A stretch of DNA of 64,000 bases from Treponemataceae bacterium (lineage in GTDB: Bacteria; Spirochaetota; Spirochaetia; Treponematales; Rectinemataceae): the NCBI GenBank assembly GCA_963667725.2, contig CAXXHO010000005.1:448001-512000 (forward strand). The letters run 5' to 3'. Both the position numbers and the translations under genes were made by a program. This document shows positions 4,090 to 63,111 of the stretch, piece after piece (position 1 is the first letter of the stretch; each line of letters opens with the position of its first letter). The notes beneath the pieces were generated by a model. It was not told the origin of the DNA, did no database searches, and saw only the letters and a program-made list of their open reading frames with translations.

Positions 4090-4319
4090 GATAAAATGTT
4101 ACATACACAATTACACATATCAAGTTAACATTTTTACTAATTGCTTTAATATGTATCTTTTTGCGCCGAAGGCGTCCGTCTAACATTGGCTTAACCCTTA
4201 ACGCCTGCTCCTGAGCGTAGCGAAGGATTGGCGTGGTTTTTGCATTGTTGTTCTGCAAAAACCATGACAAAAGGCGTTATAGGGTTGAAGCATTTGTTAG
4301 CGGTTTTTTACTTCATATT

Positions 4320-5129
4320 CTATTGCGTTAATGTATTGTTTTTAAAAAACTCTACTATAAATGGAATTGCATCTCCTGGAATTTTATGTATATCATTATA
4401 TATAAATGTAGTTAACGGCTTATCTATTGCAGATTTATATTCTGTAACATTTTTATTTATAACTATTCCTTCATCATTACATTTATTTATTTTCTTAATA
4501 AATTCTATCATTTCTTTTTGTGATTTAAACTTTACAATTTCATCTTGCTTCCCGGCAACATGGAATACTGGTATTTCTTTAAATAGATTTCTATCTTTGT
4601 TTGATCCTAAAGTACCTGCTATCGGCGCAATCGCTGCTATAATATCTCTTCGAACGGTAGCTATTACATAACTAAAAGCGGCACCATTGGAAAACCCTGT
4701 AACGTATATTCTATTTTCATCTATTGAACACTTATTTTTTAAATATATCAGTATTTCATCAAATAGCCTGATATCTCTGTCCTTATAATCTCCAACATAT
4801 GTTTGCCATCCTGATTTAGCACCTCCTGTTTCCATTTTTTGAATTACAGTTCTTAATCCACGTGGGTAGACAACGATTGCTTCTGGCCAATACTTTTCGA
4901 TTTTAAATTTGCCTATGGCTTCAGTTAACTCTTGCCCATAACCATGAAAAACAAATACTACTGGTAATTTTTCTTGTGTTGAATTTTCTGGAACATATAA
5001 TAAGAAGTCTCTTTGAACATTATCTACAGATATCTTTATTTGCTCTAAAGAATATCCTTTAGTGAAAACCATCAATAATAAGGCAATAATATATATAGTT
5101 TTCATAAGTTTATACTTTCTTTTACTCAT
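4320..5129 (-). CDS. Secreted alpha/beta hydrolase (PHB depolymerase/esterase-like)
   Basis: Signal peptide, VFVFHG, GFSNG nucleophile elbow, D and H of the catalytic triad. Confidence 0.8.
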   Translation of the reverse strand: MSKRKYKLMKTIYIIALLLMVFTKGYSLEQIKISVDNVQRDFLLYVPENSTQEKLPVVFVFHGYGQELTEAIGKFKIEKYWPEAIVVYPRGLRTVIQKMETGGAKSGWQTYVGDYKDRDIRLFDEILIYLKNKCSIDENRIYVTGFSNGAAFSYVIATVRRDIIAAIAPIAGTLGSNKDRNLFKEIPVFHVAGKQDEIVKFKSQKEMIEFIKKINKCNDEGIVINKNVTEYKSAIDKPLTTFIYNDIHKIPGDAIPFIVEFFKNNTLTQ

Positions 5130-5317
5130 TAGATTCCTCCATTGTTTTCATATGCCTTTTAATACCGCTAACATTGGCTTAACCTTTAAAGCCTGGCCTG
5201 AGCGAAGCGAAGGATTGGCGTGGTTTGTGCATTGTTGTTCTGCACAAACCATGACAAAAGGCTTTATAAGGTTGAAGCTTTTGTTAGATTTCTTCTTTTC
5301 TTTAACTTACTATTTCT

Positions 5318-5842
5318 TTATAGTATCATTTCATATGCTATAAAGTCTGTCCCATATACATGTATTCTACCTAGATTTCTATATCCCATTCTCTTATAAA
5401 GTCTGTTTGCTGCTTTGTTTACTTCTGCTGCAAGATGATGTGTTGCCTTAAAACCTCTTTCCTTTGCAGTGTCACTTATATAGTGCATCATCTTTTCTCC
5501 TATACCTATGCTTTGGTATGAAGGAGTAACACATAATCGTACAAGAAAGCATGATTTTACTTTTGCCCAATCTAATAATTGTAATTCTGATGATTCTTCA
5601 TCTACCATAGAAATTGCAGCTATAATCTTATTATCATCTTCAAGTACATATAGGCTTTTATTCTTAAGATCATCTTTAAGTATTTCTCTATTTGGATAGT
5701 CTTCATCCCAATCTGAAGTACCATCAATTTTTCCTTTAGCTTTTACTGCATCATAAAGAGAATGTATTTGATCTTCTTCTATTTCTAATGCCATTCTAAA
5801 TTGTTGCATATGTTTTTCCCACGTAGCCCATGTATTATTCAA
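5318..5842 (-). CDS. GNAT N-acetyltransferase
   Basis: RLCVTPSYQSIGIG, NKAANRLYKRMGY. Confidence 0.8.
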   Translation of the reverse strand: MNNTWATWEKHMQQFRMALEIEEDQIHSLYDAVKAKGKIDGTSDWDEDYPNREILKDDLKNKSLYVLEDDNKIIAAISMVDEESSELQLLDWAKVKSCFLVRLCVTPSYQSIGIGEKMMHYISDTAKERGFKATHHLAAEVNKAANRLYKRMGYRNLGRIHVYGTDFIAYEMIL

Positions 5843-5927
5843 TTCTTTATTATTATTGCCCAGAGCATCAATCTAACATTATTAACAATGGCTTCAGCAT
5901 GTCTACTTTTGCGCCGAAGGCGTCAAT

Positions 5928-6022
5928 CTAACATTTGGATAACCTGTGAGGCGTGATTGGCGCGGTTCATGCGAAAGCATGTAACCGTGACAATAGCCGA
6001 ATCAGGTTGATCCAGTTGTTAG
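5928..6022 (-). repeat. attC: Atypical short attC (~95 bp); other divergent attC at ~7738, 8481, 15286, 22524, 47913
   Basis: CTAAC-N5-GATAACCTG...CAGGTTGATC-N5-GTTAG keeps the box geometry with a different interior. Confidence 0.85.
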
Positions 6023-6969
6023 ATGAAATTTCTTTGTAATCGTTGGATTGTGTTCTCGATCTTGTTCAATACATCAAAATAAATAACAGGCAACTCGTAA
6101 TTAATCTTTAATCCTTTAGAATAAAATCGCTTTCTATTTTTCACGGTATCAATATTCCCATCTGTATAATCAATCAAGTAAACATACTTCTCATGAAGTT
6201 CCTTATTTCTATAGTTGAAATATATTTTATTTTGATATTCAAAAGAACCATTATGAATAATTTCATGTCTGTAATTAATAATCATATTTATTGACTCTGT
6301 TTTCTCATATATAGTTCCATTCCATGATAAATCAAAGAATTTGTTTTTATCACCATATAATATTTCTTTACTAGCTAGTTTGGGCCATTTTGAATAATCA
6401 GTGTATTCATGATTACTTTCAATAACCAATTTTGTCATCAAATCAAATATTGAGTATAATTTTACAATCATATTTTCAAACATGGAATAAATAACTATCG
6501 TCTTTCTACCTGACATCCAATAAATTACATTTTCTCCTTCGTCATCAATAACATGATCTTGGTTGATATTACATAATTCTTTATAAAAAGTCACAAACAG
6601 CTCTTTTGTTTCTATTAATCTATTTTGAATAGAGGCAATAATAAAGAAAATATCATGTAGTAATAATACACGATGATTTTTTGTATCACTAATTTCGGTT
6701 ACCAAATGCGCGAATTCATCTTTTGATATAGTAAAATCTGAATCAATACCACAATTTGAAAGCCACATAGGTCTAATATCAATATTTTCATAATAATCAA
6801 TATCATTAAATATCTTGTTCTGAAATGAATCATAAAGGCTTACAAGGTTTGCATCTAATTCATAGAATATTTGGTCTCCATCAAAAATGACTTCTCCAGA
6901 TATTTCATTAATATAGAATTTAGAAATGGGTATATCACTTATCAATCCATTTGCATTAAGAATACTCAT
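6019..6969 (-). CDS. Hypothetical protein with HEPN-like RxxxxH motif
   Basis: Long ORF filling the cassette; YRHEIIHNG. Confidence 0.55.
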   Translation of the reverse strand: MSILNANGLISDIPISKFYINEISGEVIFDGDQIFYELDANLVSLYDSFQNKIFNDIDYYENIDIRPMWLSNCGIDSDFTISKDEFAHLVTEISDTKNHRVLLLHDIFFIIASIQNRLIETKELFVTFYKELCNINQDHVIDDEGENVIYWMSGRKTIVIYSMFENMIVKLYSIFDLMTKLVIESNHEYTDYSKWPKLASKEILYGDKNKFFDLSWNGTIYEKTESINMIINYRHEIIHNGSFEYQNKIYFNYRNKELHEKYVYLIDYTDGNIDTVKNRKRFYSKGLKINYELPVIYFDVLNKIENTIQRLQRNFI

Positions 6970-6995
6970 TTAGTCTCCGCGCCGAAGGCGTCCAT

Positions 6996-8353: not shown

Positions 8354-8614
8354 AATACTTCCTTACTTTAAATTAAAAACTCTAAAAACTTTTAGTCTTG
8401 ATATCATCATATGAATAACCAAATTAGCATTGGCAATAAAAAGTTTAACGTATATCTTTATCCGCCCGCGCAGCGTGAATCTAACATTGGCTTAAGCTGG
8501 GAGCTTCGACCGCGAAGCGGTTGGCGCGCTTTTTGCATGAGAGAGCGTAGCGATCTGCAAAAAGCGTGACAAAGAAGCGACTCAGCTTGAAGCAGTTGTT
8601 AGGCGAATATTCTT

Positions 8615-9106
8615 CTATATGTCTTTCTCCATATAAACTATTCCTAAATCTTTACCAAATTTTCCCCAACATTTCTTTAATCTTCCATATTCACTAAATC
8701 CATTTCTCTCATGAAACGTTAAGCTGTTTTTATTATCATCAGTTATATCAACTATTATTTTGCTAATTCCAATATTTTTTGCATCATCTTCCAATTGCTG
8801 TAATGCTCTTTTCCCTATGCCTTTCCCAATATATTCTTTTTTAATAAAATACATTACTTCTGCGGTTTTCTTAAATGGTCTTATATTCTTAAAAGCTTCT
8901 AATGTACAAAAACCAATCAATTCTTTTCCATTAAGCGTAATTGCATATCCTGAATAAACATCATTCTTATCTATGATTTTATCAAAATGATTATAATCTA
9001 CAATGTCCTCACGAAAAGCCGCTGTTGTTGTTTTAATATAATAATTCAATATATCAATCACGCTTTGCCGATGTTTCTCTTCTAATGGTTCAAATACAAT
9101 ATCCAT
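8615..9106 (-). CDS. GNAT N-acetyltransferase (phosphinothricin acetyltransferase-like)
   Basis: ILNYYIKTTTAAF, YIGKGIG, SLTFHERNGF. Confidence 0.8.
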   Translation of the reverse strand: MDIVFEPLEEKHRQSVIDILNYYIKTTTAAFREDIVDYNHFDKIIDKNDVYSGYAITLNGKELIGFCTLEAFKNIRPFKKTAEVMYFIKKEYIGKGIGKRALQQLEDDAKNIGISKIIVDITDDNKNSLTFHERNGFSEYGRLKKCWGKFGKDLGIVYMEKDI

Positions 9107-9342
9107 AAGAACATCCTTTTTTTATACTGCTTCTTTATCCACAAAGCCCGTCAGGTTAACATTTTTAGCTATAACTTCAACATGTATCATTTTGCGCCGA
9201 AGGCGTCCGCCTAACATCGGGCTTAACCCTTAACGCCTGCTCCTGAGCGAAGCGAAGGATTGGCGTGGTTTTTGCATTGTTGTTCTGCAAAAACCATGAC
9301 AAAAGGCGTTATAGGGTTGAAGCATGTGTTAGATTTCTTCTA

Positions 9343-9882
9343 TTATTCAATTTTATCAATAATACTATTATACCTGTTAAGTATTTTACCTTTGAAGTTT
9401 TCGTCTGAAAGCCTTAACTTCATTGTCTCTTCACCTTTCCCTTTCATTTCTTCTGGTGTTATAAGTTTTATTGAAATTGCCTCTGCAAATTCTAGCTTCC
9501 CAGCCATTAATATTTTAATTTTTTCAAATATCTTAGTATATCCATACTTTGTATCTTTATCGTCTTCACCACTTCCACAACAAGTTATAAAATATAGCTT
9601 GTTTATATCATCTTTATACTTTTTAAGAAAATCACTTAATGGAGATATTAATTGTCCCATCCAAACAGGTCCACATAGTATAACTGCATCATAATTTTTT
9701 ATGTTTTTATCAGTCTTATGAATTCCAAAGCTTATTTTTAATAATGATGATATCATTAGTCCAAATGATGATTTTATTCTTGGTGATATTTCAATTAAAT
9801 CATATTTTTTATCATTAGCTATTTTCTCTGCCAAATATTTGTTATTTCCAGTGTTTGAATAATATACAACAAGATTATTCAT
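9343..9882 (-). CDS. Flavodoxin-like protein
   Basis: VVYYSNTGNN FMN-binding loop, YDAVILCGPVWMG. Confidence 0.8.
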   Translation of the reverse strand: MNNLVVYYSNTGNNKYLAEKIANDKKYDLIEISPRIKSSFGLMISSLLKISFGIHKTDKNIKNYDAVILCGPVWMGQLISPLSDFLKKYKDDINKLYFITCCGSGEDDKDTKYGYTKIFEKIKILMAGKLEFAEAISIKLITPEEMKGKGEETMKLRLSDENFKGKILNRYNSIIDKIE

Positions 9883-10148
9883 CGATTCCTCCTCATTGAA
9901 TCTGCATTTTAAGTTTACCTAACTAGTGTTGAATTATAATATTAATTGCATTTCTATGTGCTTGATGGATCGAGCTAACATTTACACAATAATGTTTAGG
10001 ATGTATCTTTTTGCGCCGAAGGCGTCAATCTAACATTGGCTTAACCCTTAACGCCTGTTCCTGAGCTGGCGTTGTACAGTGCGCGGTATAGAAAATCTTG
10101 CTAATACTCTATAAATAATAGAGTTATACGATTGCAGTCGAAAATCTT

Positions 10149-11804
10149 TTATACCGCAACAGGATCTCTTGCTACTGTAGCAAGAACTTTCTTTGGTAAT
10201 TCAATAGTTAAGCGCTTGAAAATGTCCTTCGCCTCGTCGGAAATATCAGAGCAATACCAGAGGCTTACATTGTCGCTCTCAATAAGCCCTGCAGTAACAT
10301 CGGACAGAACTTTTTCAATCTGGTACCACGACCGGTCCGCCATATTCTCTGCATACCGTACCAGCACCATGGCAAGCCAGCAAATAAGAATATGGCTTCG
10401 AATACGATCATCAAGTCGGTGGTATATGGGACGAATATCCAAGGTGTTTTTCATATCCTTGAATACCCGCTCTATGGCCCAGAGCTGCTTATAGCCGGCA
10501 ACAATATCGGCAGCATCCAGCTTCATGCTGGACGTCGACACTAGAAACTTGCCATCAAGGAGTTCCTCTGAGGCTATCTTGGCGGTGTCGAGGTGCAAGA
10601 CACCCTTCGTATCCTGCCTAATGTATCTGCCATAGGCGGAATGAGAGCGTAGCGCACACGCCGCTTTCGTGTGTGCTTTCCCCGTATACTGCGACAGTTC
10701 ATCAAGCTTGCGCTTCGTAGCATCGACGATTTGTTCGCGTATGACATGGTCGCGCGTTTCGGCTTCCGGATTCTTGACGATGATGAATCGGCGCTCCGTG
10801 GCTTTCCCTGCATCGAGGACGACATCTTTAATCGCGAGGCCACTTTCCAGGATCCTGAATCGCCCTTTCCGGTGTAGGGCTTCTACCGCGGCGCCATCGG
10901 TACCAACGCGGAGCTTTTCGCCGATGATATAGTCACCGCATTCCCGTAAAAGGATTCTTCTGTTGTCGGCACTATTGAATCCTGCATCTTGGACCATGAC
11001 GACATGACCAAGATTCCACTGTCCTAGATCACCTTTCACCTGCTCGACGATCGTCTGGTCGCTCGTGTTGCCCGGGAATACCCAGCAGCGAATAGGAATG
11101 CCGCTACGCGTCACCGCAAAGGCAATCGAAACCAAGGGTAGCTCGGGGTGCCCATCCTTGCTGTGGCCACGTTTTAAGAGTCCCGAGCTGGAAGCATCTT
11201 CATCGGTCTCGAAATAGGTGTTCGTCGTATCGAGGAAGATGAGATCCACGTCGAGATGCGTATTCTTCGACACTTCGGTGAATATCTGCTTCTGGAGTTC
11301 CTCGTTCGACGCCACAAGAAGATCCATCGCCCTATAAAGATTATGAACGTCTACCTCGTTAAGGTCTTTAATAAAGGCTTTCTTTGAAACCCAGTGCTCA
11401 AGAGAAAGCTTCGAACCCGGAGCCAGGATCCTGCCTGCAACCATGGCAAAGCAGAGCCGTTCGACGGGTGTGGCGAACTGGCGTTCGTTAAGAAGCCCTT
11501 TGATAGCCTTTGCCATGCCAAGACGATTCCATAGGGCATCTAGAAGCCAGGTGCCCCCAAGCTCCCGACTTGAATGGAAGTCAAATCCGGCGGGGACTTC
11601 AGAAGGATATTCGCCTAAGACCGCAGACAGTGCCTTGATGATCGCCTGGATGTAGGAAGGCTCGATCTGATCTTCCCGTCCGAGCTTCATAAGGACATTG
11701 GTTTTGGTCTTTCCTGTTTCCTTGACGCGGTAGTTGTGCACAAGTTGAAGGTACGTATAGGTACCGCCTTGAGCATTCTTTAGGGTACATTTCCGTACGT
11801 TCAT
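10149..11804 (-). CDS. IS1634-family DDE transposase
   Basis: FLDTTNTYFE, RGHSKD, QDAGFNS, YKQLWAIERVFKDMK, IRPIYHRLDDRIRSHILIC. Confidence 0.9.
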   Translation of the reverse strand: MNVRKCTLKNAQGGTYTYLQLVHNYRVKETGKTKTNVLMKLGREDQIEPSYIQAIIKALSAVLGEYPSEVPAGFDFHSSRELGGTWLLDALWNRLGMAKAIKGLLNERQFATPVERLCFAMVAGRILAPGSKLSLEHWVSKKAFIKDLNEVDVHNLYRAMDLLVASNEELQKQIFTEVSKNTHLDVDLIFLDTTNTYFETDEDASSSGLLKRGHSKDGHPELPLVSIAFAVTRSGIPIRCWVFPGNTSDQTIVEQVKGDLGQWNLGHVVMVQDAGFNSADNRRILLRECGDYIIGEKLRVGTDGAAVEALHRKGRFRILESGLAIKDVVLDAGKATERRFIIVKNPEAETRDHVIREQIVDATKRKLDELSQYTGKAHTKAACALRSHSAYGRYIRQDTKGVLHLDTAKIASEELLDGKFLVSTSSMKLDAADIVAGYKQLWAIERVFKDMKNTLDIRPIYHRLDDRIRSHILICWLAMVLVRYAENMADRSWYQIEKVLSDVTAGLIESDNVSLWYCSDISDEAKDIFKRLTIELPKKVLATVARDPVAV

Positions 11805-11814
11805 TATACCGCTA

Positions 11815-11843
11815 ATTATACAACATAGTGTTTTATCTGTAAA
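11815..11843 (-). promoter_or_regulatory. Putative transposase promoter
   Basis: TTTACA-N17-TATAAT, 10 nt upstream of the ATG. Confidence 0.6.
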
Positions 11844-12111
11844 GTTTTATTTCGAATATTTATAAATATCTTATACCGCATTTGCATCATGCTTTTTGTA
11901 CAGTCCGTTTTTAGTTATTTGTTGTCAGTATAATATATTAAGCTGCTTTATTGCTTACTGTATTATACCACACGCTGTACAACGTCAGCTGAGCGAAGCG
12001 AAGGATTGGCGTGGTTTTTGCGTAATCTTCTCGCAAAAACCATGACAAAAGGCGTTATAGGGTTGAAGCAGGTGTTAGGTACTTTATTTTTCCATCTAAC
12101 TAGAGCTCATC

Positions 12112-13799: not shown

Positions 13800-14072
13800 T
13801 TACTTATATGCATCTTTACGATTTTCTATATCAATGATGAATATTATTACTGTCTCTTCTGAGACTTTATAAAATAACCTGTAATCTCCTATACGATATC
13901 TATATATTTCCTTGTACTCGCCTTTAAGCTTTTTTATGTTCGATCCAAAATATGGATTCTCTCGTAATATCGGATATATGTATTCTTTGATCTTTTTATA
14001 TAAGAATTTATACTTCGGAGTACTGATCTTCTTTTCAAAAGTTTCAGTCTCTGCGATTTTATAGTTAAGCAA
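13800..14072 (-). CDS. RelE/ParE-family toxin
   Basis: IKKLKGEYKEIYRYRIGDYRLFY...IENRKDAYK; overlaps the upstream small gene. Confidence 0.88.
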   Translation of the reverse strand: MLNYKIAETETFEKKISTPKYKFLYKKIKEYIYPILRENPYFGSNIKKLKGEYKEIYRYRIGDYRLFYKVSEETVIIFIIDIENRKDAYK

Positions 14073-14298
14073 TTACTTTATACCTTCCCGATGAAATATC
14101 CTTAAGTCCTTTCTTAAGATCCTTTTCAAAGGTAAGTATTTCGTTCATTTCTTCATCATCAACAATCGATTCGTTGACCGTAAAGTTTAACGCAGCATAT
14201 TCAAGATAGTTAGATATAGTTCTCTTTTGTCCATCTGCTGCCTTTTTGAATATATCATAGCTTGTTTCATCAAGCCGTACGGTAATAGTCTTTGCCAT
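14065..14298 (-). CDS. RHH-type antitoxin (start reassigned to MAKTITVRLD)
   Basis: GAGGTG RBS before ATG 14298; ribbon-helix-helix-like N-terminus. Confidence 0.75.
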   Translation of the reverse strand: MAKTITVRLDETSYDIFKKAADGQKRTISNYLEYAALNFTVNESIVDDEEMNEILTFEKDLKKGLKDISSGRYKVIA

Positions 14299-14317
14299 AT
14301 AAACACCTCTTGCTTCA

Positions 14318-14346
14318 ATAGTATTCATACTGCATCTATTTGTCAA
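14318..14346 (-). promoter_or_regulatory. Promoter of antitoxin-RelE cassette
   Basis: TTGACA-N17-TACTAT. Confidence 0.7.
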
Positions 14347-14556: not shown

Positions 14557-15183
14557 TTAATATTTCAGAATCCCTGCGTTATCTAAATATTCGCCTATAT
14601 AAAACGATGGTGTATAATCTTTAAAACCTAATCTAAATATTCCAATCCCATTACTAATTTTGTTATTTACACTTTCTTGTAGTTCTTTTGCATTCCAAAT
14701 CAGTTCTAAAACATCAAAATATGTACTTTTACTTTCTATTTTTGTTCCTTTATAAATACCATTCTTTTTCCCATATGGAGCTAAAAAAATACTTCGTATT
14801 TCTAGAGTTTTATTTATAAAGTCATCGTTTTCATGGGTGTGTATGTTTTTCAAGAAAAGTGTATAAGTATCTTCTTTAATACTATTCCAACTCAGTTTAG
14901 TAGTTCTACCAATTCGTAATGGTAAGTCTGGTCTAAATACAGAGAACTCCTTACTTGTTAAAGGAAGAGTATCTTTATAAGCTGAGTTTTCTAAAAATGT
15001 TGTTCTTGAGACTCTATAGAAATAACATTTCTTTTTAAAATGCCCAGAGAATGTCCATCCAAATTTTTCTGACAATAAACAATCATAAAAGATTTCATCA
15101 TCATCCATTCCAATAATTCTGCAAAGTTTATCTCCCCAATTTATTGTATATATTCCACCTAATATTAAGTTGTCTAAACCCAT
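14557..15183 (-). CDS. Hypothetical protein
   Basis: ORF fills the cassette, RBS AAGGA. Confidence 0.7.
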   Translation of the reverse strand: MGLDNLILGGIYTINWGDKLCRIIGMDDDEIFYDCLLSEKFGWTFSGHFKKKCYFYRVSRTTFLENSAYKDTLPLTSKEFSVFRPDLPLRIGRTTKLSWNSIKEDTYTLFLKNIHTHENDDFINKTLEIRSIFLAPYGKKNGIYKGTKIESKSTYFDVLELIWNAKELQESVNNKISNGIGIFRLGFKDYTPSFYIGEYLDNAGILKY

Positions 15184-15399
15184 TTTAAGTCCTTTGATTA
15201 ATACAAATTAATTTAGCACGAAGAGTCCATCTAATATAATTAATAATAGATTCAACATGTCTACTTTTGCGCCGAAGGCGTCCATCTAACATTGGCTTAA
15301 CCCGCGAGCCGTCGTGCGCTCCTGCGCTACCACGGCATTATCAGGTTAACATTGCAGCTATTTATGCTTTTGCGAACGCGAGTCGGGTTGAAGCTTTTG

Positions 15400-15939
15400 T
15401 TAGGTTTCTTCTTTTCTTAATATGTATATGCTCTTTATCTTCCCTGACCTTTCTTCATTCATCCAATACTTCATTCCGATTGATTTTGCTACTTCTTTTG
15501 ATGCTTCATTCTCAGGATTTATAATCGCTATAACTTTTTCTAATTTCCTTTCTTTAAAGGCATAATCAACTAATGCCTTTGCTATCTCTTTTGCATATCC
15601 TTTTTTCCATTTTGTTCTATCAATATAATAATTGACTTCAATATACTCTTTTCCCTTTATCTCTTTTGGAATGAATCCTGCGTGTCCTATCAATTCATGG
15701 GTGTTTTTAAGTTCTATCGGCCAGAGATCATATTCTTCTTTCTTTGGATCTTCTGCTATCTTTCTAAATTCTTCAATCAACATTAACTTATCTCTTGGCC
15801 CCCCAGTATACTTGGTCATTTCTTCATCAATCCACAAATACACTAGGAACTTTATATCTGACTTTCTTTGATAACGCAGTATCAATCTACTGGTTTTCAG
15901 TATTGTATCATCCATATTTTCTCCAACAGATAAAATCAA
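15400..15939 (-). CDS. GNAT N-acetyltransferase (RimJ/RimL-like); paralog of 36615..37178
   Basis: LKTSRLILR, WKKGYAKE, INPENEASKEVAKSIGM. Confidence 0.85.
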   Translation of the reverse strand: MILSVGENMDDTILKTSRLILRYQRKSDIKFLVYLWIDEEMTKYTGGPRDKLMLIEEFRKIAEDPKKEEYDLWPIELKNTHELIGHAGFIPKEIKGKEYIEVNYYIDRTKWKKGYAKEIAKALVDYAFKERKLEKVIAIINPENEASKEVAKSIGMKYWMNEERSGKIKSIYILRKEET

Positions 15940-16175
15940 CTTTTTCAGCGTTTTACTTTTCTACGCGATCTTTCAATATAACATTGTTAATAAATAGTTT
16001 AGCATGTATCTTTTTGCGCCGAAGGCGTCAACCTAACATTTTCGCTTAACCTTTAAGCCCGACCTGAGCGATAGCTCAGGTTTGGCGCGATTCTTGCACC
16101 ACTTTACGTTGCCGCTCCTACTTTACGGTATCTCGCAAGAAGCGTGCCAAAGGGCTTATAAGGTTGAAGCGTGTG

Positions 16176-17738: not shown

Positions 17739-18161
17739 TTATGATGCATTTTTTGTTTTCAAATACTCTTCTGGAGTCTGAACAAGTAGATCAGCTCCTT
17801 TATAGTCTTTTATATTCCTTGTTAATAAATGCTGAATTCCATGTTCTCTCGCTGTAAAGTATTGTATACCATCTTCAAAATCTGAAAATTGTGAATTCAG
17901 TGCCAAATCCACAACCTTATCATTCATTTCAACTATACCAATCATAATCCTTAACTTTCGCAATAGTTCTTTAGCCTTTTCTATTCCTAATAATTTCCTA
18001 AGAATATAGAATACATTTGCAAAGACAAGTGGTGTTGTTACGAGCTTCAGTATTCCTTTATCTCCCATAGTGAATACTTCTGCAGCATATGGATAGAATG
18101 GTTCACGCTTACAAAGAAGATCCAATATGATGTCAGTATCTATAAATATTTCCTTACTCAT
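17739..18161 (-). CDS. PIN-domain toxin
   Basis: IFIDTDIILD...DFEDGIQY...LLTRNIKDY. Confidence 0.88.
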   Translation of the reverse strand: MSKEIFIDTDIILDLLCKREPFYPYAAEVFTMGDKGILKLVTTPLVFANVFYILRKLLGIEKAKELLRKLRIMIGIVEMNDKVVDLALNSQFSDFEDGIQYFTAREHGIQHLLTRNIKDYKGADLLVQTPEEYLKTKNAS

Positions 18162-18396
18162 ATTTTGCTTCCAAGTAGCCCAAGTAATCTATCCCTTTCA
18201 TATCTTTCTCAGAAATGACTCCACTAAGTTCTTCTACTAAGGGAGAATACGTTGATTTTATCTTCTCGCCCTCAGATACAAGGTTTCTGAAGTACGATTC
18301 AACAAGTTTTGACAGGCTTTTATTGTTGTTGTGAGCATATTTCTTTACAGATTGAATAACTGCTTTATCCAGTTTTAATGTTAGTTTAGTTTCCAT
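18154..18396 (-). CDS. RHH-like antitoxin (DUF6364-like)
   Basis: METKLTLKLDKAVI...SLSKLVESYF; overlaps the PIN gene. Confidence 0.75.
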   Translation of the reverse strand: METKLTLKLDKAVIQSVKKYAHNNNKSLSKLVESYFRNLVSEGEKIKSTYSPLVEELSGVISEKDMKGIDYLGYLEAKYE

Positions 18397-22087: not shown

Positions 22088-22299
22088 ATTTACCTCACAA
22101 TATTATCATTTATCAATGCACTTTTTTTATAAAAATCTGCGCGCGAAGCGCGTCCGCCTAACATTTTCGCTTAACCTTTAAGCCCGGCCTGAGCGTAAGC
22201 GAAGGCTTGGCGCGATTCTTGCACCACTTTACGCTGCCGCTCCTACTTTACGGGGTCTCGCAAGAAGCGTGACAAAGGGCTTATAAGGTTGAAGCGGAT

Positions 22300-22528
22300 G
22301 TTAGAAAGCGTTCATGTTCCTTAACACTTATACCAGTGCAGCTCAACACTGTTAGAAAATACGCTGCATTTCAGAGAAATACCGAGATGAAATTGTCAGT
22401 GTTTACTTTAGGTAAATGCTGCAATGAATCTCGGCAATAAAAGATGCAGCGTATTTTCTAACATGAAATCTTACATTCTTTTCTTACATTTACTCTTTTA
22501 TTTTCTTCGAGCCATACGTCTTTCTAAC
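22300..22528. other. ORF-less hairpin cassette, copy 1 of 6
   Basis: Bounded by GTTAGAAAG/CTTTCTAAC; internal 20-bp inverted repeat at 22350-22463. Confidence 0.88.
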
Positions 22529-22733
22529 ATTCGTTTAACCTTTAAACCACGTTCCCGAGCAAAGCGAGGGATTGGCACGTGTTTTTGCATAAGACTTCAT
22601 GCAAAAACCGTGACAAAGTGGTTTATAAGGTTGAAACGGTTGTTATATGCTTTTTATTTATTACCATGATTGTTTATACAGTATAAATAATTATAAAATA
22701 ATAGAACTATGTTGACTGTTTTACAACTATTTC

Positions 22734-24610: not shown

Positions 24611-25453
24611 TTAGGTGCTTAGTTTTCTTTCTGCTGATTCAACCGTTTGACACATAAGTGTCACAATTGTCATCGGACCTACTCCTCCAGGAACAGGAGT
24701 ATATGCTGATGCTTTCGCATATGCTTCTTTCTCAACATCCCCTATTCCACCAGGATGATATCCTGCATCTACTATTACTGCCCCATCCTTAATCCAATTT
24801 GCCTTAACAAAGTTAGGCTTTCCAATTGCCGCTACAACAATATCAGCTTCTTGAATAATTGATTCAATGTTTTCTGTTCTTGAATGACATATTGTAATCG
24901 TTGCATTCTCATTTAAAAGCAGCATAGTAATAGGTTTTCCAAGAATTGCACTTCTCCCAATAACCACGGCCTTCTTCCCCACCATAGGTATCTTATAGTA
25001 CTTGAGTAGTTTAATAATCCCACCAGGAGTTGCTGAAACAAAGGCATGTTCACCTAATGCCATCTGACCAAATCCAAGAGCAGTCACACCATCGACATCT
25101 TTTTGAGAATCTATTCTATCAAAACAAATTCTTTCATCAATCTGTTTTGGAACAGGATGCTGCAATAAAATACCAAATACACTACTATCATTATTTAATG
25201 TATCGATAACTGAAAGCAATTCATCCGTCGTTGTAGTTTCACTCAGTTCAACTTTCTTCGTACCAAGGCCTATTCTCTTGCAAGTATTGCCTTTCATTGT
25301 GACATATATCTTTGATGAAGGATCGTTGCCCACTAAAATCGTAGCCAATACTGGTTGAATAGTTGATTGTGTTATGATCTTTTTAACACGTTCTTTTAAT
25401 TCAAGCTCAAGTTCAGTAGCCAATTTCTTTCCATCAAGTACAATTTGTTCCAT
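24611..25453 (-). CDS. folD: Bifunctional methylenetetrahydrofolate dehydrogenase/cyclohydrolase (start reassigned to MEQIVLDGK)
   Basis: LATILVGNDPSSKIYV, GILLQHPVP, KDVDG, VIGRSAILGKP, TPVPGGVGPMT. Confidence 0.93.
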   Translation of the reverse strand: MEQIVLDGKKLATELELELKERVKKIITQSTIQPVLATILVGNDPSSKIYVTMKGNTCKRIGLGTKKVELSETTTTDELLSVIDTLNNDSSVFGILLQHPVPKQIDERICFDRIDSQKDVDGVTALGFGQMALGEHAFVSATPGGIIKLLKYYKIPMVGKKAVVIGRSAILGKPITMLLLNENATITICHSRTENIESIIQEADIVVAAIGKPNFVKANWIKDGAVIVDAGYHPGGIGDVEKEAYAKASAYTPVPGGVGPMTIVTLMCQTVESAERKLST

Positions 25454-25625
25454 GTATGTTTCCTTTTGCGCCGAAGGCGTCCACCTAACATCGGGCTTAA
25501 CCTTTAAAGCCTGTTCCTGAGCGAAGCGAGGGATTGGCGTGGTTTTTGCGTGAAGGAGCGTAGCGACTCGCAAAAACCATGACAAAAGGCTTTATAAGGT
25601 TGAAGCAGTTGTTCGGTGCTTATTA

Positions 25626-37178: not shown

Positions 37179-37228
37179 GAAGCGCCAAACCTAACATTCG
37201 TACATATTATCTAATACACTTTTTGTTT

Positions 37229-37426
37229 TTAAATTGAAATGCATTTTTGCACGATGAATATTATTCCTCCGATAACAATTGCTTTAAAAAGTAATGAAGC
37301 AATTTTGTTATTCAAAATAGCATCCATATCTACTGTCCCATTTTTAATTAGGATATAAATAATTATCACTATAAGTATAGGCAAACCAACCAAACCAATA
37401 ATCAACTTTGTATTCATTTGTATCAC
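37229..37426 (-). CDS. Small two-TM hypothetical protein
   Basis: Two hydrophobic segments; first gene of an apparently fused cassette. Confidence 0.55.
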   Translation of the reverse strand: MIQMNTKLIIGLVGLPILIVIIIYILIKNGTVDMDAILNNKIASLLFKAIVIGGIIFIVQKCISI

Positions 37427-39413: not shown

Positions 39414-39550
39414 ATTTTCGCTTAACCTTTAAGCCCGACCTGAGCGATAGCTCAGGTTTGGCGCGATTCTTGCACCACTTTACATTGCCGCTCCTACTTT
39501 ACTGAATCTCGCAAGAAGCGTGCCAAAGGGCTTATAAGGTTGAAGCGGGT

Positions 39551-39779: not shown

Positions 39780-39891
39780 ATTGGCTTAACCCTTAACGCC
39801 TGTTCCTGAGCGAAGCGAAGGATTGGCGTGGTTTTTGCGTGATCTTTTCGCAAAAACCATGACAAAAGGCGTTATAGGGTTGAAGCATTTG

Positions 39892-40425: not shown

Positions 40426-40726
40426 ATTTTCTCTTTTAATTTGCTCGAAGGATCAATCTAACATTAACACTAAAAAGTTTAGGATGTATCTTTTTGCGCC
40501 GAAGGCGTCAATCTAACATTGGCTTAACCCTTAACGCCTGTTCCTGAGCGAAGCGAAGGATTGGCGTGGTTTTTGCGTCATCTTCTAGCAAAAACCATGA
40601 CAAAAGGCGTTATAGGGTTGAAGCATTTGTTAGGCACTTTTTCTTTCTATAATATTAGTACTTCCATAATTCTATTTACACTTTATTTCTTTATAATATT
40701 ACTTTATCTTCTATCTGCTTACTATT

Positions 40727-47821: not shown

Positions 47822-48050
47822 ATTTCTTCCTCTTCTTTTGGCGCGAAGCATCAATCTAACATTAAGAAATAATTGTTTAGTATGTATATTTTTTGGCGCC
47901 GAAGGCGTCAACCTAACATTCGTTTAACCTTTAAACCCGGCCGAGCGTAGCGAGGCATTGGCGCGATTCTTGCCTCACTCTAAAAAGCCCTTTTACTCTA
48001 CGTTGTTTCGCAAGAATCGTGACAATAGGGTTTATAAGGTTGAAACGGTT

Positions 48051-48343: not shown

Positions 48344-48937
48344 CTACTTTTGTATTTGATTAAATCTCTTGATCTTCCACTCTTCATTCTCATATATTAC
48401 TTCTGTAATCCCACAATAATCATATTTAAACCTATATCTATGATAAACAGGCATCCCTAAGAGATTGCACATTAAGATCCTTATATAACCCTCATGACAG
48501 AACAATACATATGTTCCATCTTTCTCTTTAATCTCTCTTAATAAATCATTTTGTCTTTCTTTAACCTCTTCTCCCGTCTCTCCACCTGGGAATCTACAAT
48601 CATGTTTATGTTCAAAGAAATCTCTCCAAAAGTCTGGATATTTTTTCTCTATCTCTTCATCAGACATAGTCTCAATGATTCCATTATCAATCTCATTGAG
48701 CCGTTTATCTACTATGATAGATATATTCTTATCTCTTGATAATGGTTCTGCAGTCTGCTTAACCCGTAAGTATTCGCTTGCATAAATATTATCAATTTTT
48801 TCAGCTTTAAAATATTCAACCAAGGCATGTGCCTGTTTAAAACCAATTTCAGTTAATGAAGGATCTGTATGGCCTATTAGAGAATTAATCTCTGAAGATA
48901 CTTCTTTTTCACCGTGACGAATAAAGTACAATTTCAT
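48344..48937 (-). CDS. Histidine phosphatase family protein
   Basis: LYFIRHGE, YASEYLRVKQTA, FPGGET, FCHEG. Confidence 0.9.
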   Translation of the reverse strand: MKLYFIRHGEKEVSSEINSLIGHTDPSLTEIGFKQAHALVEYFKAEKIDNIYASEYLRVKQTAEPLSRDKNISIIVDKRLNEIDNGIIETMSDEEIEKKYPDFWRDFFEHKHDCRFPGGETGEEVKERQNDLLREIKEKDGTYVLFCHEGYIRILMCNLLGMPVYHRYRFKYDYCGITEVIYENEEWKIKRFNQIQK

Positions 48938-49196
48938 ATTACTCTCTTATAAATCAATTCTTTACGAGCGCCGAAGGCGTCAACCTAACATTGGCTTAAC
49001 CCTTAACGCCTGTTCCTGAGCGAAGCGAAGGATTGGCGTGGTTTTTGCGTCATCTTCTAGCAAAAACCATGACAAAGGGCGTTATAGGGTTGAAGCATTT
49101 GTTAGATTGTTCTTAACTCAAATAATACCTATACTATAATAAGTTTCTATTTCTTATAGATTTATCGTTTTCTTTCATTTTTTCTATTAATTAATT

Positions 49197-54963: not shown

Positions 54964-55590
54964 TTACCATGAATTAAGATGAATGTGATCCTTAATGTCC
55001 ATATTCACTTGTTTAAATACTTGCTCTTCTTCTTCTGGATATCCTAAAGCTAAATAGCACGGTAATTCATACTCTATTGGAATATTTAGTTCTTTCTTTA
55101 TATGAATTCTTTCTGCTTCAGAAGGTATTCTCGTTACGCCTTGAATGTTATAGCTAGAAGCTGCAATTAGAATATTCTCAATGCTACACCAGATTGATGC
55201 GAAGTAATTTAGCTCAGACAAGCTTTGGGGCTTTAAGAGATCCTTCCCTTGAAAGAAAAATGGTAATACTAACGTACTTGCCGTCAACAGCATTTTTCGC
55301 TGTAGCGGTATCGCATCAATATACATTTTCCTTTGCTCTTCATTTTTATATCCAACTTTATCTACAATCTTAGTTGCCTCATTAGTAGTTCTCTCTTTAG
55401 CAATCTTTTCAATAAGTTGTATTCTTTTATCAAGACCATCAATAATTACATATTCCCATTTCCTCATATGATCATTTGACGGTGCATGTAATCCTGCATC
55501 TAAAATAGTAGTAAGTATATCCGATGGAATTTTCTTTGAAGAAAAGCGTCGAGTAGTCTTCCTATTTTTAATTGCATCTAATGTTTCCAT
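54964..55590 (-). CDS. Nitroreductase family protein
   Basis: RKTTRRF, APSNDHMRKW, IENILIAA, LALGYP. Confidence 0.88.
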   Translation of the reverse strand: METLDAIKNRKTTRRFSSKKIPSDILTTILDAGLHAPSNDHMRKWEYVIIDGLDKRIQLIEKIAKERTTNEATKIVDKVGYKNEEQRKMYIDAIPLQRKMLLTASTLVLPFFFQGKDLLKPQSLSELNYFASIWCSIENILIAASSYNIQGVTRIPSEAERIHIKKELNIPIEYELPCYLALGYPEEEEQVFKQVNMDIKDHIHLNSW

Positions 55591-55836
55591 ATATTCTCCA
55601 TATACTCAGGTATGTTAATTACATTTATGCTGAATAGTTCATCTCACTTTCAGGTTAACATAACTGATATTCGATTCAACATGTCTACTTTCGCGCCGAA
55701 GGCGTCCATCTAACATTGGCTTAACCCTTAACGCCTGTTCCTGAGCGTAGCGAAGGATTGGCGTGGTTTTTGCGTCATCTTCTCGCAAAAACCATGACAA
55801 AAGGCGTTATAGGGTTGAAGCATGTGTTAGGTGTCT

Positions 55837-60800: not shown

Positions 60801-61178
60801 TTATGGCTCGAATCTTTTGCACTCAATATTTGGAATATATTTATAGTGTTTGTCATTCGCTGTTAAGAGTGTTTCACTCGTTTGAACAACAGTTGCAGCT
60901 ATTAGTGCATCTGCTAACATCATCGAATGACTAAGTGAATATTCTTGTATATAGAATATTGCTCTTGATGAAATTTCTTTATCTATTTGTATGATATCAA
61001 TATTCCATTTTTGTATCTGCTTTTGAAAAATCCTAAACTCTTCTTTATTCTTCATCCCTTGGATAAGTTCCATATAGGTTACAGCTGATACTGAAAATGG
61101 AATATTTGCTTCAACTACTTTCTTAGCCTTCTCGTTTCCACGGAGGTACCATATTAGGACATCAGTATCAATAATCAA
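60801..61178 (-). CDS. vapC: VapC PIN-domain toxin
   Basis: MIIDTDVLIWYLRG, LADALIAAT, LLTANDKHY. Confidence 0.9.
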   Translation of the reverse strand: MIIDTDVLIWYLRGNEKAKKVVEANIPFSVSAVTYMELIQGMKNKEEFRIFQKQIQKWNIDIIQIDKEISSRAIFYIQEYSLSHSMMLADALIAATVVQTSETLLTANDKHYKYIPNIECKRFEP

Positions 61179-61417
61179 AATGAACGTCCTTTTCGAAGTT
61201 CGCGAACCGATTCTTCGACAGTCTTTTCATCTTTCCTTTTGTTCCACATACCAAAGAATCCATTATCTTCTTGCATGGAAACACTATCTTTCTTATGAAT
61301 AGGAACTATTTTTGCTAGCGCTTTCCCTCTAAAAGTAACAGTAACTTCTTGTCCATTAACAACTTGATCTATTATTTTACCAGGCTGAATTCTTAGTTCT
61401 TTCGTCGTTATCTTCAT
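61175..61417 (-). CDS. Phd/YefM-family antitoxin (start reassigned to MKITTKELR)
   Basis: ITTKELR...GQEVTVTFRGKALAKIVP; GGAGGA RBS. Confidence 0.85.
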   Translation of the reverse strand: MKITTKELRIQPGKIIDQVVNGQEVTVTFRGKALAKIVPIHKKDSVSMQEDNGFFGMWNKRKDEKTVEESVRELRKGRSF

Positions 61418-61427
61418 GGTTTCCTCC

Positions 61428-61470
61428 AGTATACACTTCATAGTATACACTACAAAACACCACTAATCAA
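61428..61470 (-). promoter_or_regulatory. Promoter/operator of Phd-VapC cassette
   Basis: TTGATT-N17-TATACT; AGTATACACT repeated at 61428 and 61442. Confidence 0.65.
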
Positions 61471-61621
61471 GTCTTTTAATATTCTTCCTGCGCGGGAGCG
61501 TCTTTCTAACATTGGCTTAACCCTTAACGCTTGTTCCTGAGCGAAGCGAAGGATTGGCGTGGTTTTTGCGTCATCCTCGAGCAAAAACCATGACAAAAGG
61601 CGTTATAGGGTTGAAGCATGT

Positions 61622-62196
61622 GTTAGCTATCTTCTCTTAACTCTATTTAGATATGTTTTATTACTATAATCGTCATGATTATATTTTTTCTTTTGGCTCT
61701 TTATATCGCCAAACATAATAAAAGACTGTTCGGTAGCCGTAACATACTCGATCAGCCAAACTCGGTTATTATGTTATATTGATATAACTTTGAAAGCAAG
61801 AATATTATGATATTCTTACGTGGCACAAAATTATAAAGCTTTTAAATCTTTTAATATCTATTTATACTATATGTTTTTATCCTTCTTCATATACAATAGT
61901 TTTATTTCTCAAAACTCTTCATTATTGTTTTTATAGATCTAGTGATTCAAAGAATTGAAGCTCATCTGAATCGGTTTTCAATAAGCTTTAAAATATTATA
62001 GATTTCATATATTCGCAACACAATAAAAAAGCCTGCGAACTCCTTATGGAATACACAGGCCTAATACTACTTGGAATGTTAAAAAATATATTAACGATTA
62101 CAAATGCTATTGATTTGTACTACTATGATTGACCATTGCCGTATAACTTTTTACTAAGGATTTAATATTCTTCCTGCGCGGGAGCGTCTAGCTAAC
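61622..62196. other. ORF-less cassette (~575 bp)
   Basis: GTTAGCTA/TAGCTAAC complementary ends; no ORF of 60 aa or more in the track. Confidence 0.75.
62022..62060 (-). terminator. Intrinsic-terminator-like hairpin
   Basis: Minus strand GCCTGTGTATTCC-ATAA-GGAGTTCGCAGGC-TTTTTTATT; two mismatches become G-U pairs only on this strand. Confidence 0.6.
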
Positions 62197-62324
62197 ATTG
62201 GCTTAACCCTTAACGCCTGTTCCTGAGCGTAGCGAAGGATTGGCGTGGTTTGTGCATTGTTGTTCTGCACAAACCATGACAAAAGGCGTTATAGGGTTGA
62301 AGCAGTTGTTAGATTTCTTCATCT

Positions 62325-62822
62325 TTATATCTTTTTTTTCCCTATATTATTCATTATTAATATAATTTCATTTTTTTCATATGAATTTAGATTAATATCA
62401 AATGCTCCTTTTTCTTTATGTATTATCCGTAATCCATTTTCCAATTCTTGGTATTTCTCTATTCTACTCCATTCCGCAGAATAATTAAGAAAAACTACAC
62501 CATTTGAATAAAATCCACTATTCTTTGATTCAATATAGATTCTTAAAGGGTCAATAAAAACTAAACTTCCAAAAATTATTATTCCTAATTTTTCAAAAAG
62601 TGTTTGTTGTAGAAAAGCAGAACAAAATATAATTATGCTAATAATACTTGGATATATTATTTGAGAATAACTTGAATCAACTCTTAATATAATTTTACTT
62701 CTTTTTACAACATTAATTATTTTTAGGCTTTTTATAGACGTAATAGAACCACTAAAAAATATTGATATAATAATAATTGCAGTTACAATTTTTGCAATAT
62801 TAATTAGCATATTTTTTCCCAT
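62325..62822 (-). CDS. Hypothetical membrane protein
   Basis: Three hydrophobic segments, then GFYSNGV...WSRIEKY (bacterial PH-like tail). Confidence 0.6.
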   Translation of the reverse strand: MGKNMLINIAKIVTAIIIISIFFSGSITSIKSLKIINVVKRSKIILRVDSSYSQIIYPSIISIIIFCSAFLQQTLFEKLGIIIFGSLVFIDPLRIYIESKNSGFYSNGVVFLNYSAEWSRIEKYQELENGLRIIHKEKGAFDINLNSYEKNEIILIMNNIGKKKI

Positions 62823-63111
62823 ATATTTTCTATCCCTGCGCGATTCGTCACTCTAACATTGGCATTAATAGGTTTAGTATGTATCTTTTTGCGCCAGAGG
62901 CGTCAATCTAACATTGGCTTAACCCTTAACGCCTGCTCCTGAGCGAAGCGAAGGATTGGCGTGGTTTTTGCATTGTTGTTCTGCAAAAAACATGACAAAA
63001 GGCGTTATAGGGTTGAAGCATTTGTTAGAAACCTTCCCCTTGTGTCTCTCAAGGTTTTTTATTATTGTCTTCAATAAATCTCTTATTATTTATGTTCTTA
63101 GTTTCTTATCT

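What the first reader, a model, noticed from the sequence alone, without database searches (positions are those of the whole stretch)
4125..62912. Fixed-length 55 bp leader module between a current and a decayed older cassette boundary in ten unrelated cassettes
Seen: a second TAAC core lies exactly 55 bp from the true core at 4129/4184, 5877/5932, 9160/9215, 9979/10034, 15235/15290 (TAAT), 15982/16037, 40462/40517, 55659/55714 and 62857/62912, and 57 bp away at 47860/47917. The + strand consensus is YTAAC-ATW-N11(variable, AT-rich)-NTTYAR-BATGTMT..TTTT-GCGCCGAAGGCGTC-NNN-TAAC, and the 14-nt gap between TAAC and NTTYAR is invariant. The two boxes partly covary (CTAAC..GTTTAG versus GTTAAC..TTCAAC). 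The inner core is often preceded by a decayed leader hairpin (gcgcgaagcatc ~47841, gctcgaaggatc ~40443, gcgcgattcgtc ~62838), and at 62857 even keeps the attC spacer ATTGGC. In the 15400/36615 paralog pair the inner core aligns with a recognisable ACCTAACATTCG boundary. Inference: existing cassettes were repeatedly re-capped with a standard module. It could be a captured attI-like site, a collapsed mini-cassette, or a dyad promoter/operator, and may be a footprint of how cassettes are built or re-homed.
Basis: partly seen in the sequence, partly recalled or inferred. Interest (0 to 1): 0.85.

Follow-up and report, generated by a model that had tools for sequence, protein, structure and literature searches.

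The report
Standard cap on unrelated integron cassettes
In one group of bacteria with very large gene-cassette arrays, the same short gene-less DNA piece has been fused again and again to the front of unrelated mobile genes and is kept intact by selection, which points to a second, testable way in which such cassettes get rebuilt.

Summary
The window lies in a 154-site, Treponema-type reverse integron array. A 55-58 bp gene-less cap sits at the 5' end of 11 window cassettes, 21 in the genome, and over 80 distinct cassettes in metagenomes and one congener, ahead of 39 unrelated protein families. Uncapped homologues (6 families) begin exactly at the inner G|TT, so the cap was added. Cap and gene move as one cassette: the outer 8 bases pair with the gene's own R'' in 56 of 58. 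The boxes and the inner arm are under purifying selection; the spacer drifts neutrally. It is not the native attI (24 sites compared), has no hairpin, no significant dyad and no sigma-70 match in the sense direction. One lineage resembles a collapsed attC. Best reading: a pseudo-cassette whose inner core is a double-stranded IntI acceptor that captures cassettes, the analogue of the class 1 qacE101 cap on a tenfold larger scale. What selection preserves (promoter or integrase site) is unresolved. No recombination or transcription was shown.

The parts
4129..4183 (-). 55-bp cap ahead of a NUDIX gene (3544-4089)
5877..5931 (-). 55-bp cap ahead of a GNAT gene (5318-5842); uncapped homologues in contig C1 start at the inner G
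8428..8484 (-).
9160..9214 (-). 55-bp cap ahead of a GNAT gene (8615-9106)
9979..10033 (-). 55-bp cap ahead of a flavodoxin gene (9343-9882); the attC in front of it is split by an IS
15235..15289 (-). 55-bp cap (inner G changed to A) ahead of an unknown ORF (14557-15183)
15982..16036 (-). 55-bp cap ahead of a GNAT gene (15400-15939)
40462..40516 (-). 55-bp cap ahead of a RibD_C-domain gene (39892-40425); used below as the anatomy example
40517..40636 (-). ordinary attC of the preceding cassette, ending at the outer G|TT (G = 40517); folds into a long bottom-strand hairpin (-33.8 kcal/mol)
40496..40516 (-). outer start (R' arm, 8 bases complementary to the capped gene's own R'') and generic leader hairpin with a bottom-strand GAA loop
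40477..40495 (-). cap-specific conserved left block: A-tract, ACAT (-25..-22) and NYTRAAN box (-21..-15)
40463..40476 (-). 14-nt AT-rich spacer, neutral rate except A-9 and the final AT
40453..40462 (-). inner core G|TT (G = 40462) and inner arm with retained G+8, A+9
40441..40452 (-). decayed leader hairpin of the captured cassette
47860..47916 (-). 57-bp cap ahead of a two-ORF cassette; uncapped homologues start at the inner G
55659..55713 (-). 55-bp B-lineage cap ahead of a nitroreductase gene (54964-55590)
62857..62911 (-). 55-bp cap ahead of an unknown ORF (62325-62822); ends like an attC spacer
48344..48989 (-). uncapped histidine-phosphatase cassette whose capped homologues (90-91% identical DNA) occur in three metagenome loci
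37189..37230 (-). boundary of the 36615 GNAT paralogue, aligned with the inner core of the 15982 cap; preceded by a degenerate cap-like stretch rather than an attC

Best explanation
The module is a gene-less pseudo-cassette that works as a portable cap. It begins like any cassette of this array family (R' arm plus leader hairpin), carries 33 specific bases that probably descend from an attC that lost its stem, and ends in a G|TT core that cannot fold and so cannot excise. Step 1 (inferred): the integron integrase recombines the folded attC of a free cassette with the cap's inner core, used as a double-stranded secondary acceptor in the manner of attG hotspots; the usual crossover is at 0, in part of the B lineage at a second G|TT 11 bp further on. 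Step 2 (shown by sequence): cap plus gene then move as one cassette between the upstream attC and the gene's own attC; only combinations whose outer 8 bases pair with the gene's R'' persist. Step 3 (shown): the captured cassette's old leader decays while the left block, the spacing and the inner arm are kept by purifying selection. Step 4 (inferred): capped cassettes serve as donors for further capping. What the selection preserves is open; I put about 0.45 on a cassette-borne expression signal read by something other than plain sigma-70 (as for qacE101), 0.35 on integrase binding that aids mobility or acceptor use, 0.2 on other.
For: Uncapped homologues begin exactly at the inner G in 6 families. 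76 ORFs behind caps fall into 39 unrelated families; one identical 33-bp cap and ten pairs with 1-2 differences sit on unrelated genes. Inner starts are still intact at 0 in 11 of 80 and at +11 in 4 of 80. Outer 8-mer equals the reverse complement of the gene's R'' in 56 of 58, the inner in 17 of 58. Caps use only 6 outer 8-mer classes of 48, which cover 75 of 212 uncapped genome cassettes, and the class follows the cap lineage, as expected if the outer start travels with the cap. A capped cassette sits first behind an intI and attI in locus L078. Within families (59 non-independent pairs) unforced positions -29..-26 diverge 5.9%, A-9 0%, +8/+9 1.7%, against 21% for the spacer, 19% for four-fold sites and 31% for the old leader. 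G+8 and A+9 are kept in 43 and 42 of 44 families while C+10 survives in 13; the reverse-complemented left arm of native attI has the same G at arm position 8 in 7 of 11, and attG hotspots need a CRGM motif at positions 6-9 and recombine as double-stranded DNA (bioRxiv 10.1101/2022.09.11.507474, passages). The -21 box is within one mismatch of GTTRRRY in 27 of 44 families. No stable fold (mean z -0.34). A-lineage caps align to attC with one large deletion better than shuffles and often end in the two commonest attC spacer endings. Precedent: qacE101 (PMC8876359 section 12).
Against: No recombination or transcription was observed. No de-capped leftovers were found: 0 of 439 distinct cassette starts begin with the derived inner sequence GTTAAC, which re-use of old caps should leave behind. 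Where they differ, the uncapped homologue's first 8 bases match the outer rather than the inner copy in 4 of 5 informative families, which also fits a crossover at +5..+10 by template switching; positions +4, +5, +7 do however drift at the neutral rate (24%). The cap has no left arm at the attI position, and its upstream box is not a significant match to the integrase arm profile (P=0.33-0.69; GTTRRRY P=0.055). The attC-collapse alignment is post hoc, fails for the B lineage (21.4 vs 21.5) and the families share ancestry. Conservation at the positions fixed by my search pattern is ascertained for the metagenome set. No uncapped homologue was found to test the +11 register; one B-lineage pair (L103/L169) did not align cleanly.
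Confidence: 0.45

Rival explanations
1. The cap is a promoter pseudo-cassette that spreads without integrase, by template switching or recombination between homologous cassette starts (long homology in attC and leader on one side, 6-11 bases around +5..+10 on the other); selection is on expression of genes far from Pc.
For: Uncapped homologues match the outer, not the inner, 8-mer in 4 of 5 informative families; cap lineage and start class are associated, as microhomology would require; fixed spacing with a neutral AT-rich spacer and an upstream A-tract is promoter-like; no de-capped leftovers; qacE101 is reported to drive downstream cassettes.
Against: Sense sigma-70 score equals shuffles (2.7 vs 2.1+-2.5) while promoters of other cassettes in the same arrays score 12-14, and the best registers differ between lineages; +7, the T of the most obvious -10 box, drifts; no copy of the motif in the host backbone as a regulon would give (0 outside arrays); the second junction at +11 also falls on a G|TT.
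Confidence: 0.25
2. The cap is an independent collapsed mini-cassette (type-i unusual cassette with a truncated attC) that inserted at attI ahead of whatever cassette was first and then stayed fused, as oxa10/aadA1 or GES-1/aacA4 fusions do.
For: A- and C-lineage similarity to attC with one deletion; endings identical to attC spacers in 8 or more families; L078 shows cap then intact start right behind attI; truncated-attC fusions are known (PMC4670013, PMC12901181 passages).
Against: A 55-bp unit without a hairpin has no evident way to excise and re-insert dozens of times; the outer start matches the gene's R'' in 56 of 58; collapse alone does not explain ongoing purifying selection.
Confidence: 0.12
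3. The 33-bp block is the captured attI (or a deleted attI) of an integron platform not sampled here.
For: Direct repeat of the core consensus 21 bp upstream of G|TT, reminiscent of the upstream direct repeats of attI1 (PMC3518468 passages); deleted-attI cassettes are known and recombine (PMC12901181).
Against: None of 24 attI sites from this genome, its family and one metagenome locus resembles it; no true hit outside the genus in 400 order-level and 400 phylum-level genomes; every copy follows a cassette leader, never an intI.
Confidence: 0.08
4. The cap is an operator or Xer/dif-type site (dyad AAC-14-GTT has the 4+6+4 geometry), or a MITE/IS110 footprint.
For: Geometry and resemblance of the B-lineage inner core to a XerD arm (recalled, not from a call); host has LexA and an IS110-family transposase.
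Against: The inner four bases of both would-be arms are among the drifting positions; no significant dyad (P=0.88); dif-like candidates in the host backbone and the lexA/recA upstream regions do not resemble the cap by eye; the IS110 gene lies outside the arrays.
Confidence: 0.05

Closest known systems
qacE101 pseudo-cassette of class 1 integrons (PMC8876359, section 12 read)
   Same: A fixed 5' segment of a cassette fused to the 5' end of several unrelated cassettes and mobile with them; described as a pseudo-cassette that supplies a promoter.
   Different: qacE101 is 101 bp, from a known donor cassette, on four named resistance cassettes, with a reported promoter. This cap is 55-58 bp, has no known donor gene, has diverged into several lineages, sits on at least 39 gene families and about 9% of the cassettes of one genome, and lacks a sigma-70 match.
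attG hotspots of IntI1-3 (bioRxiv 10.1101/2022.09.11.507474; passages and Discussion read)
   Same: Short double-stranded acceptor with GWT core and a right-hand motif at positions 6-9; the cap keeps G+8 and A+9.
   Different: attG sites are chance chromosomal targets; here the candidate site is carried inside cassettes and conserved. The left-hand attG motif is in a supplementary figure I could not see. Position +7 does not fit the R of CRGM.
Deleted-attI and truncated-attC unusual cassettes, fused cassettes (PMC12901181, abstract, passages, first part of Discussion; PMC4670013, passages)
   Same: Non-canonical junction between two cassette parts that then move together; downstream cassette not excisable alone in the cited cases.
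   Different: Those junctions follow a gene and are identical to pieces of attI1/attI2 or the gene's own attC; this unit has no gene, does not match the native attI and recurs with unrelated partners.
Treponema-type reverse chromosomal integrons (PMC3607928, passages)
   Same: intI transcribed toward attI and in the direction of the cassettes; three such platforms in this genome.
   Different: No cap of this kind appears in the passages read; attC here are about 120-150 bp.
Gene-less promoter cassettes of Vibrionaceae superintegrons (10.1101/2023.11.21.568050; search listing and start of abstract only)
   Same: Gene-less units proposed to drive expression of distal cassettes in large arrays.
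   Different: Those have their own complete attC and move alone; this cap has none and is fused.

Membership tests
attI site (native platform) | Lies next to intI, once per integron | tested here: not met
   All 21 genome copies follow an attC crossover and leader inside arrays; attI behind each intI is a different sequence.
attI site (native platform) | Inverted left arm 6 bp from the right arm (simple site) as in the family's attI | tested here: not met
   attI left arms listed; caps have no such arm at -14..-6; attI score -52 to -66 on the cap profile; alignment no better than shuffles.
attI site (native platform) | Upstream direct repeats of the core site | tested here: inconclusive
   Box at -21 within one mismatch of GTTRRRY in 27 of 44 families, P=0.055.
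attC site | Bottom strand folds into a stem with R and L boxes and extrahelical bases | tested here: not met
   Mean MFE -1.9 kcal/mol, z -0.34, against -34 for true attC.
attC site | Descent from attC (sequence remnant) | tested here: inconclusive
   A and C lineages above shuffles, B not; post hoc, related families.
attG-type secondary site | GWT core with CRGM-like motif at 6-9 | tested here: inconclusive
   GTT, G+8, A+9 kept; +7 mostly pyrimidine; ordinary starts also carry GA (170 of 228).
attG-type secondary site | Integrase-dependent insertion as double-stranded acceptor | not testable with these tools
   Needs a recombination assay; raw reads of this organism were not available.
qacE101-type pseudo-cassette | Fixed 5' cassette segment fused to several unrelated cassettes and co-mobile | tested here: met
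qacE101-type pseudo-cassette | Contains an active promoter | tested here: inconclusive
   No sigma-70 match above shuffles in the sense direction; activity not testable.
qacE101-type pseudo-cassette | Derived from an identifiable donor cassette | tested here: not met
   No cassette with the left block continuing into a gene without an inner core among 81 left-block hits.
Xer dif/cer site | Conserved inner bases of two 11-bp arms around a 6-8 bp core | tested here: not met
   Those positions drift; dyad P=0.88. The dif consensus itself is recalled.
Rfam RNA family | Match at gathering score | tested here: not met
   0 matches in the window.

The most novel reading that the evidence does not exclude
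A collapsed attC has become a self-propagating, portable integrase landing site inside cassettes: a miniature attI-like platform that travels in the cassette pool, serially captures new cassettes far from the real attI, and may express them. It would be a second entry point into superintegron arrays and a natural, still-running model for how cassettes gain matched ends and new 5' regions.
Probability: 0.3. Interest if true: 0.82.

Novelty: new variant of a known kind. Interest (0 to 1): 0.62.

Why it matters
How cassettes are made and how genes deep in large arrays get expressed are open questions (stated as knowledge gaps in PMC12901181, Discussion). The only comparable cap I found in print, qacE101, is known from a handful of clinical cassettes. 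Here the same kind of event has happened at least 39 times with one 55-bp unit, with young and old examples, capped and uncapped homologues, a native integrase and a native attI for comparison. That makes a cheap, direct test possible: does the integrase use the cap as an acceptor, where does it cross over, how do the 8 matched bases arise, and does the cap drive transcription. Annotation tools that call cassettes from attC alone will not see these composites.

Tried and rejected
Native attI capture: rejected. Sigma-70 promoter in one conserved register: sense score at shuffle level; antisense mean 5.1 vs 2.5 but in three different registers, so not accepted. Dyad operator, including a MerR-type 19-bp spacer reading: no significant dyad; the single backbone hit is a promoter between a sugar-type operon and a regulator and looks unrelated. 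LexA box: no shared motif seen by eye with lexA, recA or intI upstream regions. Xer/dif: rejected. Leader peptide from the junction ATG: stops fall before the inner core in 24 of 44, in frame with the gene in 2. Hairpin/attC function: rejected. Integrase arm at -25..-17 one helical turn from the attI position: best upstream match but not significant. Other recurring caps: none among the head clusters printed (script stopped afterwards) and no inner start in 354 uncapped cassettes apart from one missed attC (that script's cap filter had 5 false positives, so class counts are taken). Distribution: 2 of 69 family genomes; 8 of 400 order-level and 19 of 400 phylum-level genomes had one-mismatch hits, at the level of the reversed-pattern control, and only congener G050 holds true caps; 0 in viral contigs; plasmid matches cover only the attC part of the query. 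Sequencing runs: no RNA holder listed; the one raw-read run laid 0 reads and contig joints were repeat artefacts; an identical contig over 3507-4188 in run X1 may be the source sample and is not independent. Host taxonomy: the FlaA search rang nowhere and ribosomal S2 against PDB was uninformative, so 'spirochaete' rests on the integron layout and on earlier AI notes.

Full report
Setting. The window is G000:C5:448001-512000. All long ORFs run on the - strand between repeats of about 120-150 bp that fold as attC hairpins on the bottom strand. The array holds 154 detected crossovers and starts behind an integron integrase at C5:550.9-551.8 kb (TIGR02249 above cut-off; closest solved structure IntI4) that is transcribed toward attI, the layout described for Treponema (PMC3607928, passages). 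Two further platforms of the same layout lie on C1 and C7. That the host is a spirochaete is taken from this layout and from earlier AI notes; my own checks were uninformative. Positions below are on the cassette strand, with the G of the inner G|TT as 0.

Observation. The ten pairs are present at the stated places. RTTA at +55 occurs in 8 of 73 window starts (shuffle mean 1.6, P=0.018 over all offsets) and 17 of 228 genome starts (P=0.003). A profile of the ten copies gives 20 hits in the genome, 18 on C5, 1 on C3, 1 on C7, none on C1's 36 cassettes, all right behind an attC crossover and a leader hairpin, with a clear score gap; a 13-nt-spacer variant on C3 makes 21. One of them is an unlisted decayed copy at window 8428. 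Exact-pattern scans gave 2 of 69 family genomes, 3 loci in genome contigs, 69 in metagenomes and 0 in viral contigs; with the genome these make 80 distinct copies, and congener G050 adds two more. In 400 order-level and 400 phylum-level genomes only chance-level hits appeared apart from G050; arrays are often unassembled, so this is 'not found', not 'absent'.

Anatomy. The specific part is 33 bp: an A-tract and ACAT (-33..-22), a NYTRAAN box (-21..-15), 14 AT-rich bases, then G|TT. Three lineages (A, B, C) differ at -29..-26, -20, -18, -15 and in the spacer. When spacing was left free, 78 of 81 left-block hits were known 14-nt copies, one had 13, one 17 and one was unrelated; one search showed one more 13-nt copy and one with a base missing in the box. 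These loci were collected with the fixed pattern, so only the genome set is unbiased.

It is an added cap. The 76 ORFs behind caps form 39 families: NUDIX, GNAT, flavodoxin, RibD_C, nitroreductase and unknowns in the window. In 6 families uncapped homologues, preceded by a normal attC, begin exactly at the inner G, for example the window cassette at 48989 against three capped metagenome copies at 90-91% identity. Inner starts are still nearly intact at 0 in 11 of 80 copies and at +11, behind GTTAAC and five bases, in 4 of 80. One identical cap sits on two unrelated genes and ten further cross-family pairs differ at 1-2 of 33 positions. No other recurring cap was seen among about 430 cassette starts.

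Cap and gene are one mobile unit. In ordinary cassettes the first 8 bases equal the reverse complement of the cassette's own R'' in 171 of 196 (the next cassette's start in 12). In capped cassettes the outer start matches in 56 of 58, the inner in 17 of 58. The outer leader hairpin diverges 1% within families, the inner one 31%. Locus L078 has a capped cassette in first position behind intI and attI. Caps use only six outer 8-mer classes out of 48, which hold 75 of 212 uncapped genome cassettes, and the class tracks the cap lineage.

It is under selection. Among 59 within-family pairs (not independent) the spacer diverges 21% and +4/+5/+7 24%, like four-fold sites (19%), whereas positions not fixed by my pattern diverge far less: -29..-26 5.9%, -9 0%, +6 5%, +8/+9 1.7%. 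G+8 and A+9 persist in 43 and 42 of 44 families while C+10 persists in 13, against 159 of 170 in ordinary starts. The loss of C+10 could be mutational. So the cap is not a mere scar.

What it is not. The native attI of this genome and family is an inverted arm, a 6-bp core and G|TT. It scores -52 to -66 on the cap profile (caps at least +22), and 24 distinct attI align to caps no better than shuffles. The cap does not fold, has no significant dyad (P=0.88) and no consistent leader ORF, no Rfam match, no copy in the host backbone, and no sense sigma-70 signal above shuffles although other cassettes in these arrays carry near-consensus promoters. LexA, Xer/dif and IS110 readings found no support.

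Origin. A-lineage caps align to attC with one long deletion better than shuffles (26.7 vs 22.7+-0.6; C 25.4 vs 22.9; B 21.4 vs 21.5): ACATG is a common R''-L'' spacer (23 of 217), the box resembles L'', and A caps often end in the two commonest attC spacer endings. This is post hoc and I rate it about even. The 36615 paralogue shows a similar degenerate junction behind a 73-aa ORF.

Mechanism. Shown: repeated capping at a fixed G|TT register, co-mobility, selection on boxes and spacing. Inferred: capture by integrase at the inner core used as a double-stranded acceptor. In favour are the G|TT register at both junctions, retention of G+8/A+9, which recur in the attI arms and in the right-hand motif required by attG hotspots (bioRxiv 10.1101/2022.09.11.507474, passages and Discussion), and a near-consensus core repeat two helical turns upstream (27 of 44 within one mismatch, P=0.055), recalling the upstream repeats of attI1 (PMC3518468, passages). 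Against: 0 of 439 starts look like de-capped leftovers, the uncapped homologue matches the outer rather than the inner 8-mer in 4 of 5 informative families, and the upstream box is not a significant integrase-arm match. Template switching near +5..+10 therefore remains a serious rival. The selected function is undecided between an atypical promoter and an integrase site.

Comparison with what is known. The closest case is qacE101, a 101-bp 5' segment fused to four named class 1 cassettes and described as a promoter pseudo-cassette (PMC8876359, section 12; the primary papers were not seen). Deleted-attI and truncated-attC cassettes (PMC12901181; PMC4670013) are related junction types but follow a gene. 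Literature searches returned no description of a cap of this kind in chromosomal or spirochaete integrons; the library lacks most subscription papers. PMC2811028 and PMC3025954 were seen as passages only; no supplements were read, and the left-hand attG motif is in a closed supplement. The scan's own notes held nothing on this sequence.

Verdict. A real, recurrent, selected element: a new variant of the pseudo-cassette kind, much larger in scale than the known example, with a clear experiment to decide how it spreads. Interest 0.62; the portable-landing-site reading has about 0.3 probability and would deserve about 0.8.

Noticed in passing
genome arrays, +8..+21 of cassette starts (e.g. window 4163-4176): Unrelated cassettes share a few GC-rich leader hairpins whose bottom-strand loops are mostly C-GNA-G or C-GNNA-G (69 CGAAG of 142 hairpins found in 228 starts). 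The copy next to an active R' is conserved (1%), the displaced copy decays, suggesting a role on the recombining single strand; extra stability of GNA loops is recalled.
   Followed up: partly
genome arrays: Start/R'' complementarity runs over 8 bases (171 of 196) and stops sharply at the ninth, one more than the usual 7-base core.
   Followed up: partly
window 10149-11804 and flanks about 10060-11990: A DDE transposase (PF01609) element is inserted inside an attC, splitting the site in front of the 9979 cap.
   Followed up: partly
window about 22160-22530, 32670-33030, 36135-36500, 39050-39780: Repeated gene-less cassettes of about 364 bp with an internal start-like GTTAG 66 bp in; a second gene-less family of about 274 bp occurs ten or more times further up the array.
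   Followed up: no
window 37189-37459: A 73-aa hydrophobic ORF is fused to the 36615 GNAT gene through a degenerate junction with no attC.
   Followed up: partly
G000 C1:34.4 kb, C5:550.9 kb, C7:37.4 kb: Three reverse-type integron platforms with 430-470 aa integrases; attI reads as an inverted arm, a 6-bp core and a direct arm in 22 of 23 sites listed; caps are concentrated in the C5 array. The assembly has 6% contamination.
   Followed up: partly
window 13800-14346, 17739-18396, 2013-2601, 60801-61450: Toxin-antitoxin cassettes (ParE, PIN, HigB, Phd) with near-consensus sigma-70 promoters in some leaders; none is capped.
   Followed up: no
window 24611-25585: A cassette encodes a FolD-type tetrahydrofolate dehydrogenase/cyclohydrolase, a housekeeping-type enzyme.
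   Followed up: no
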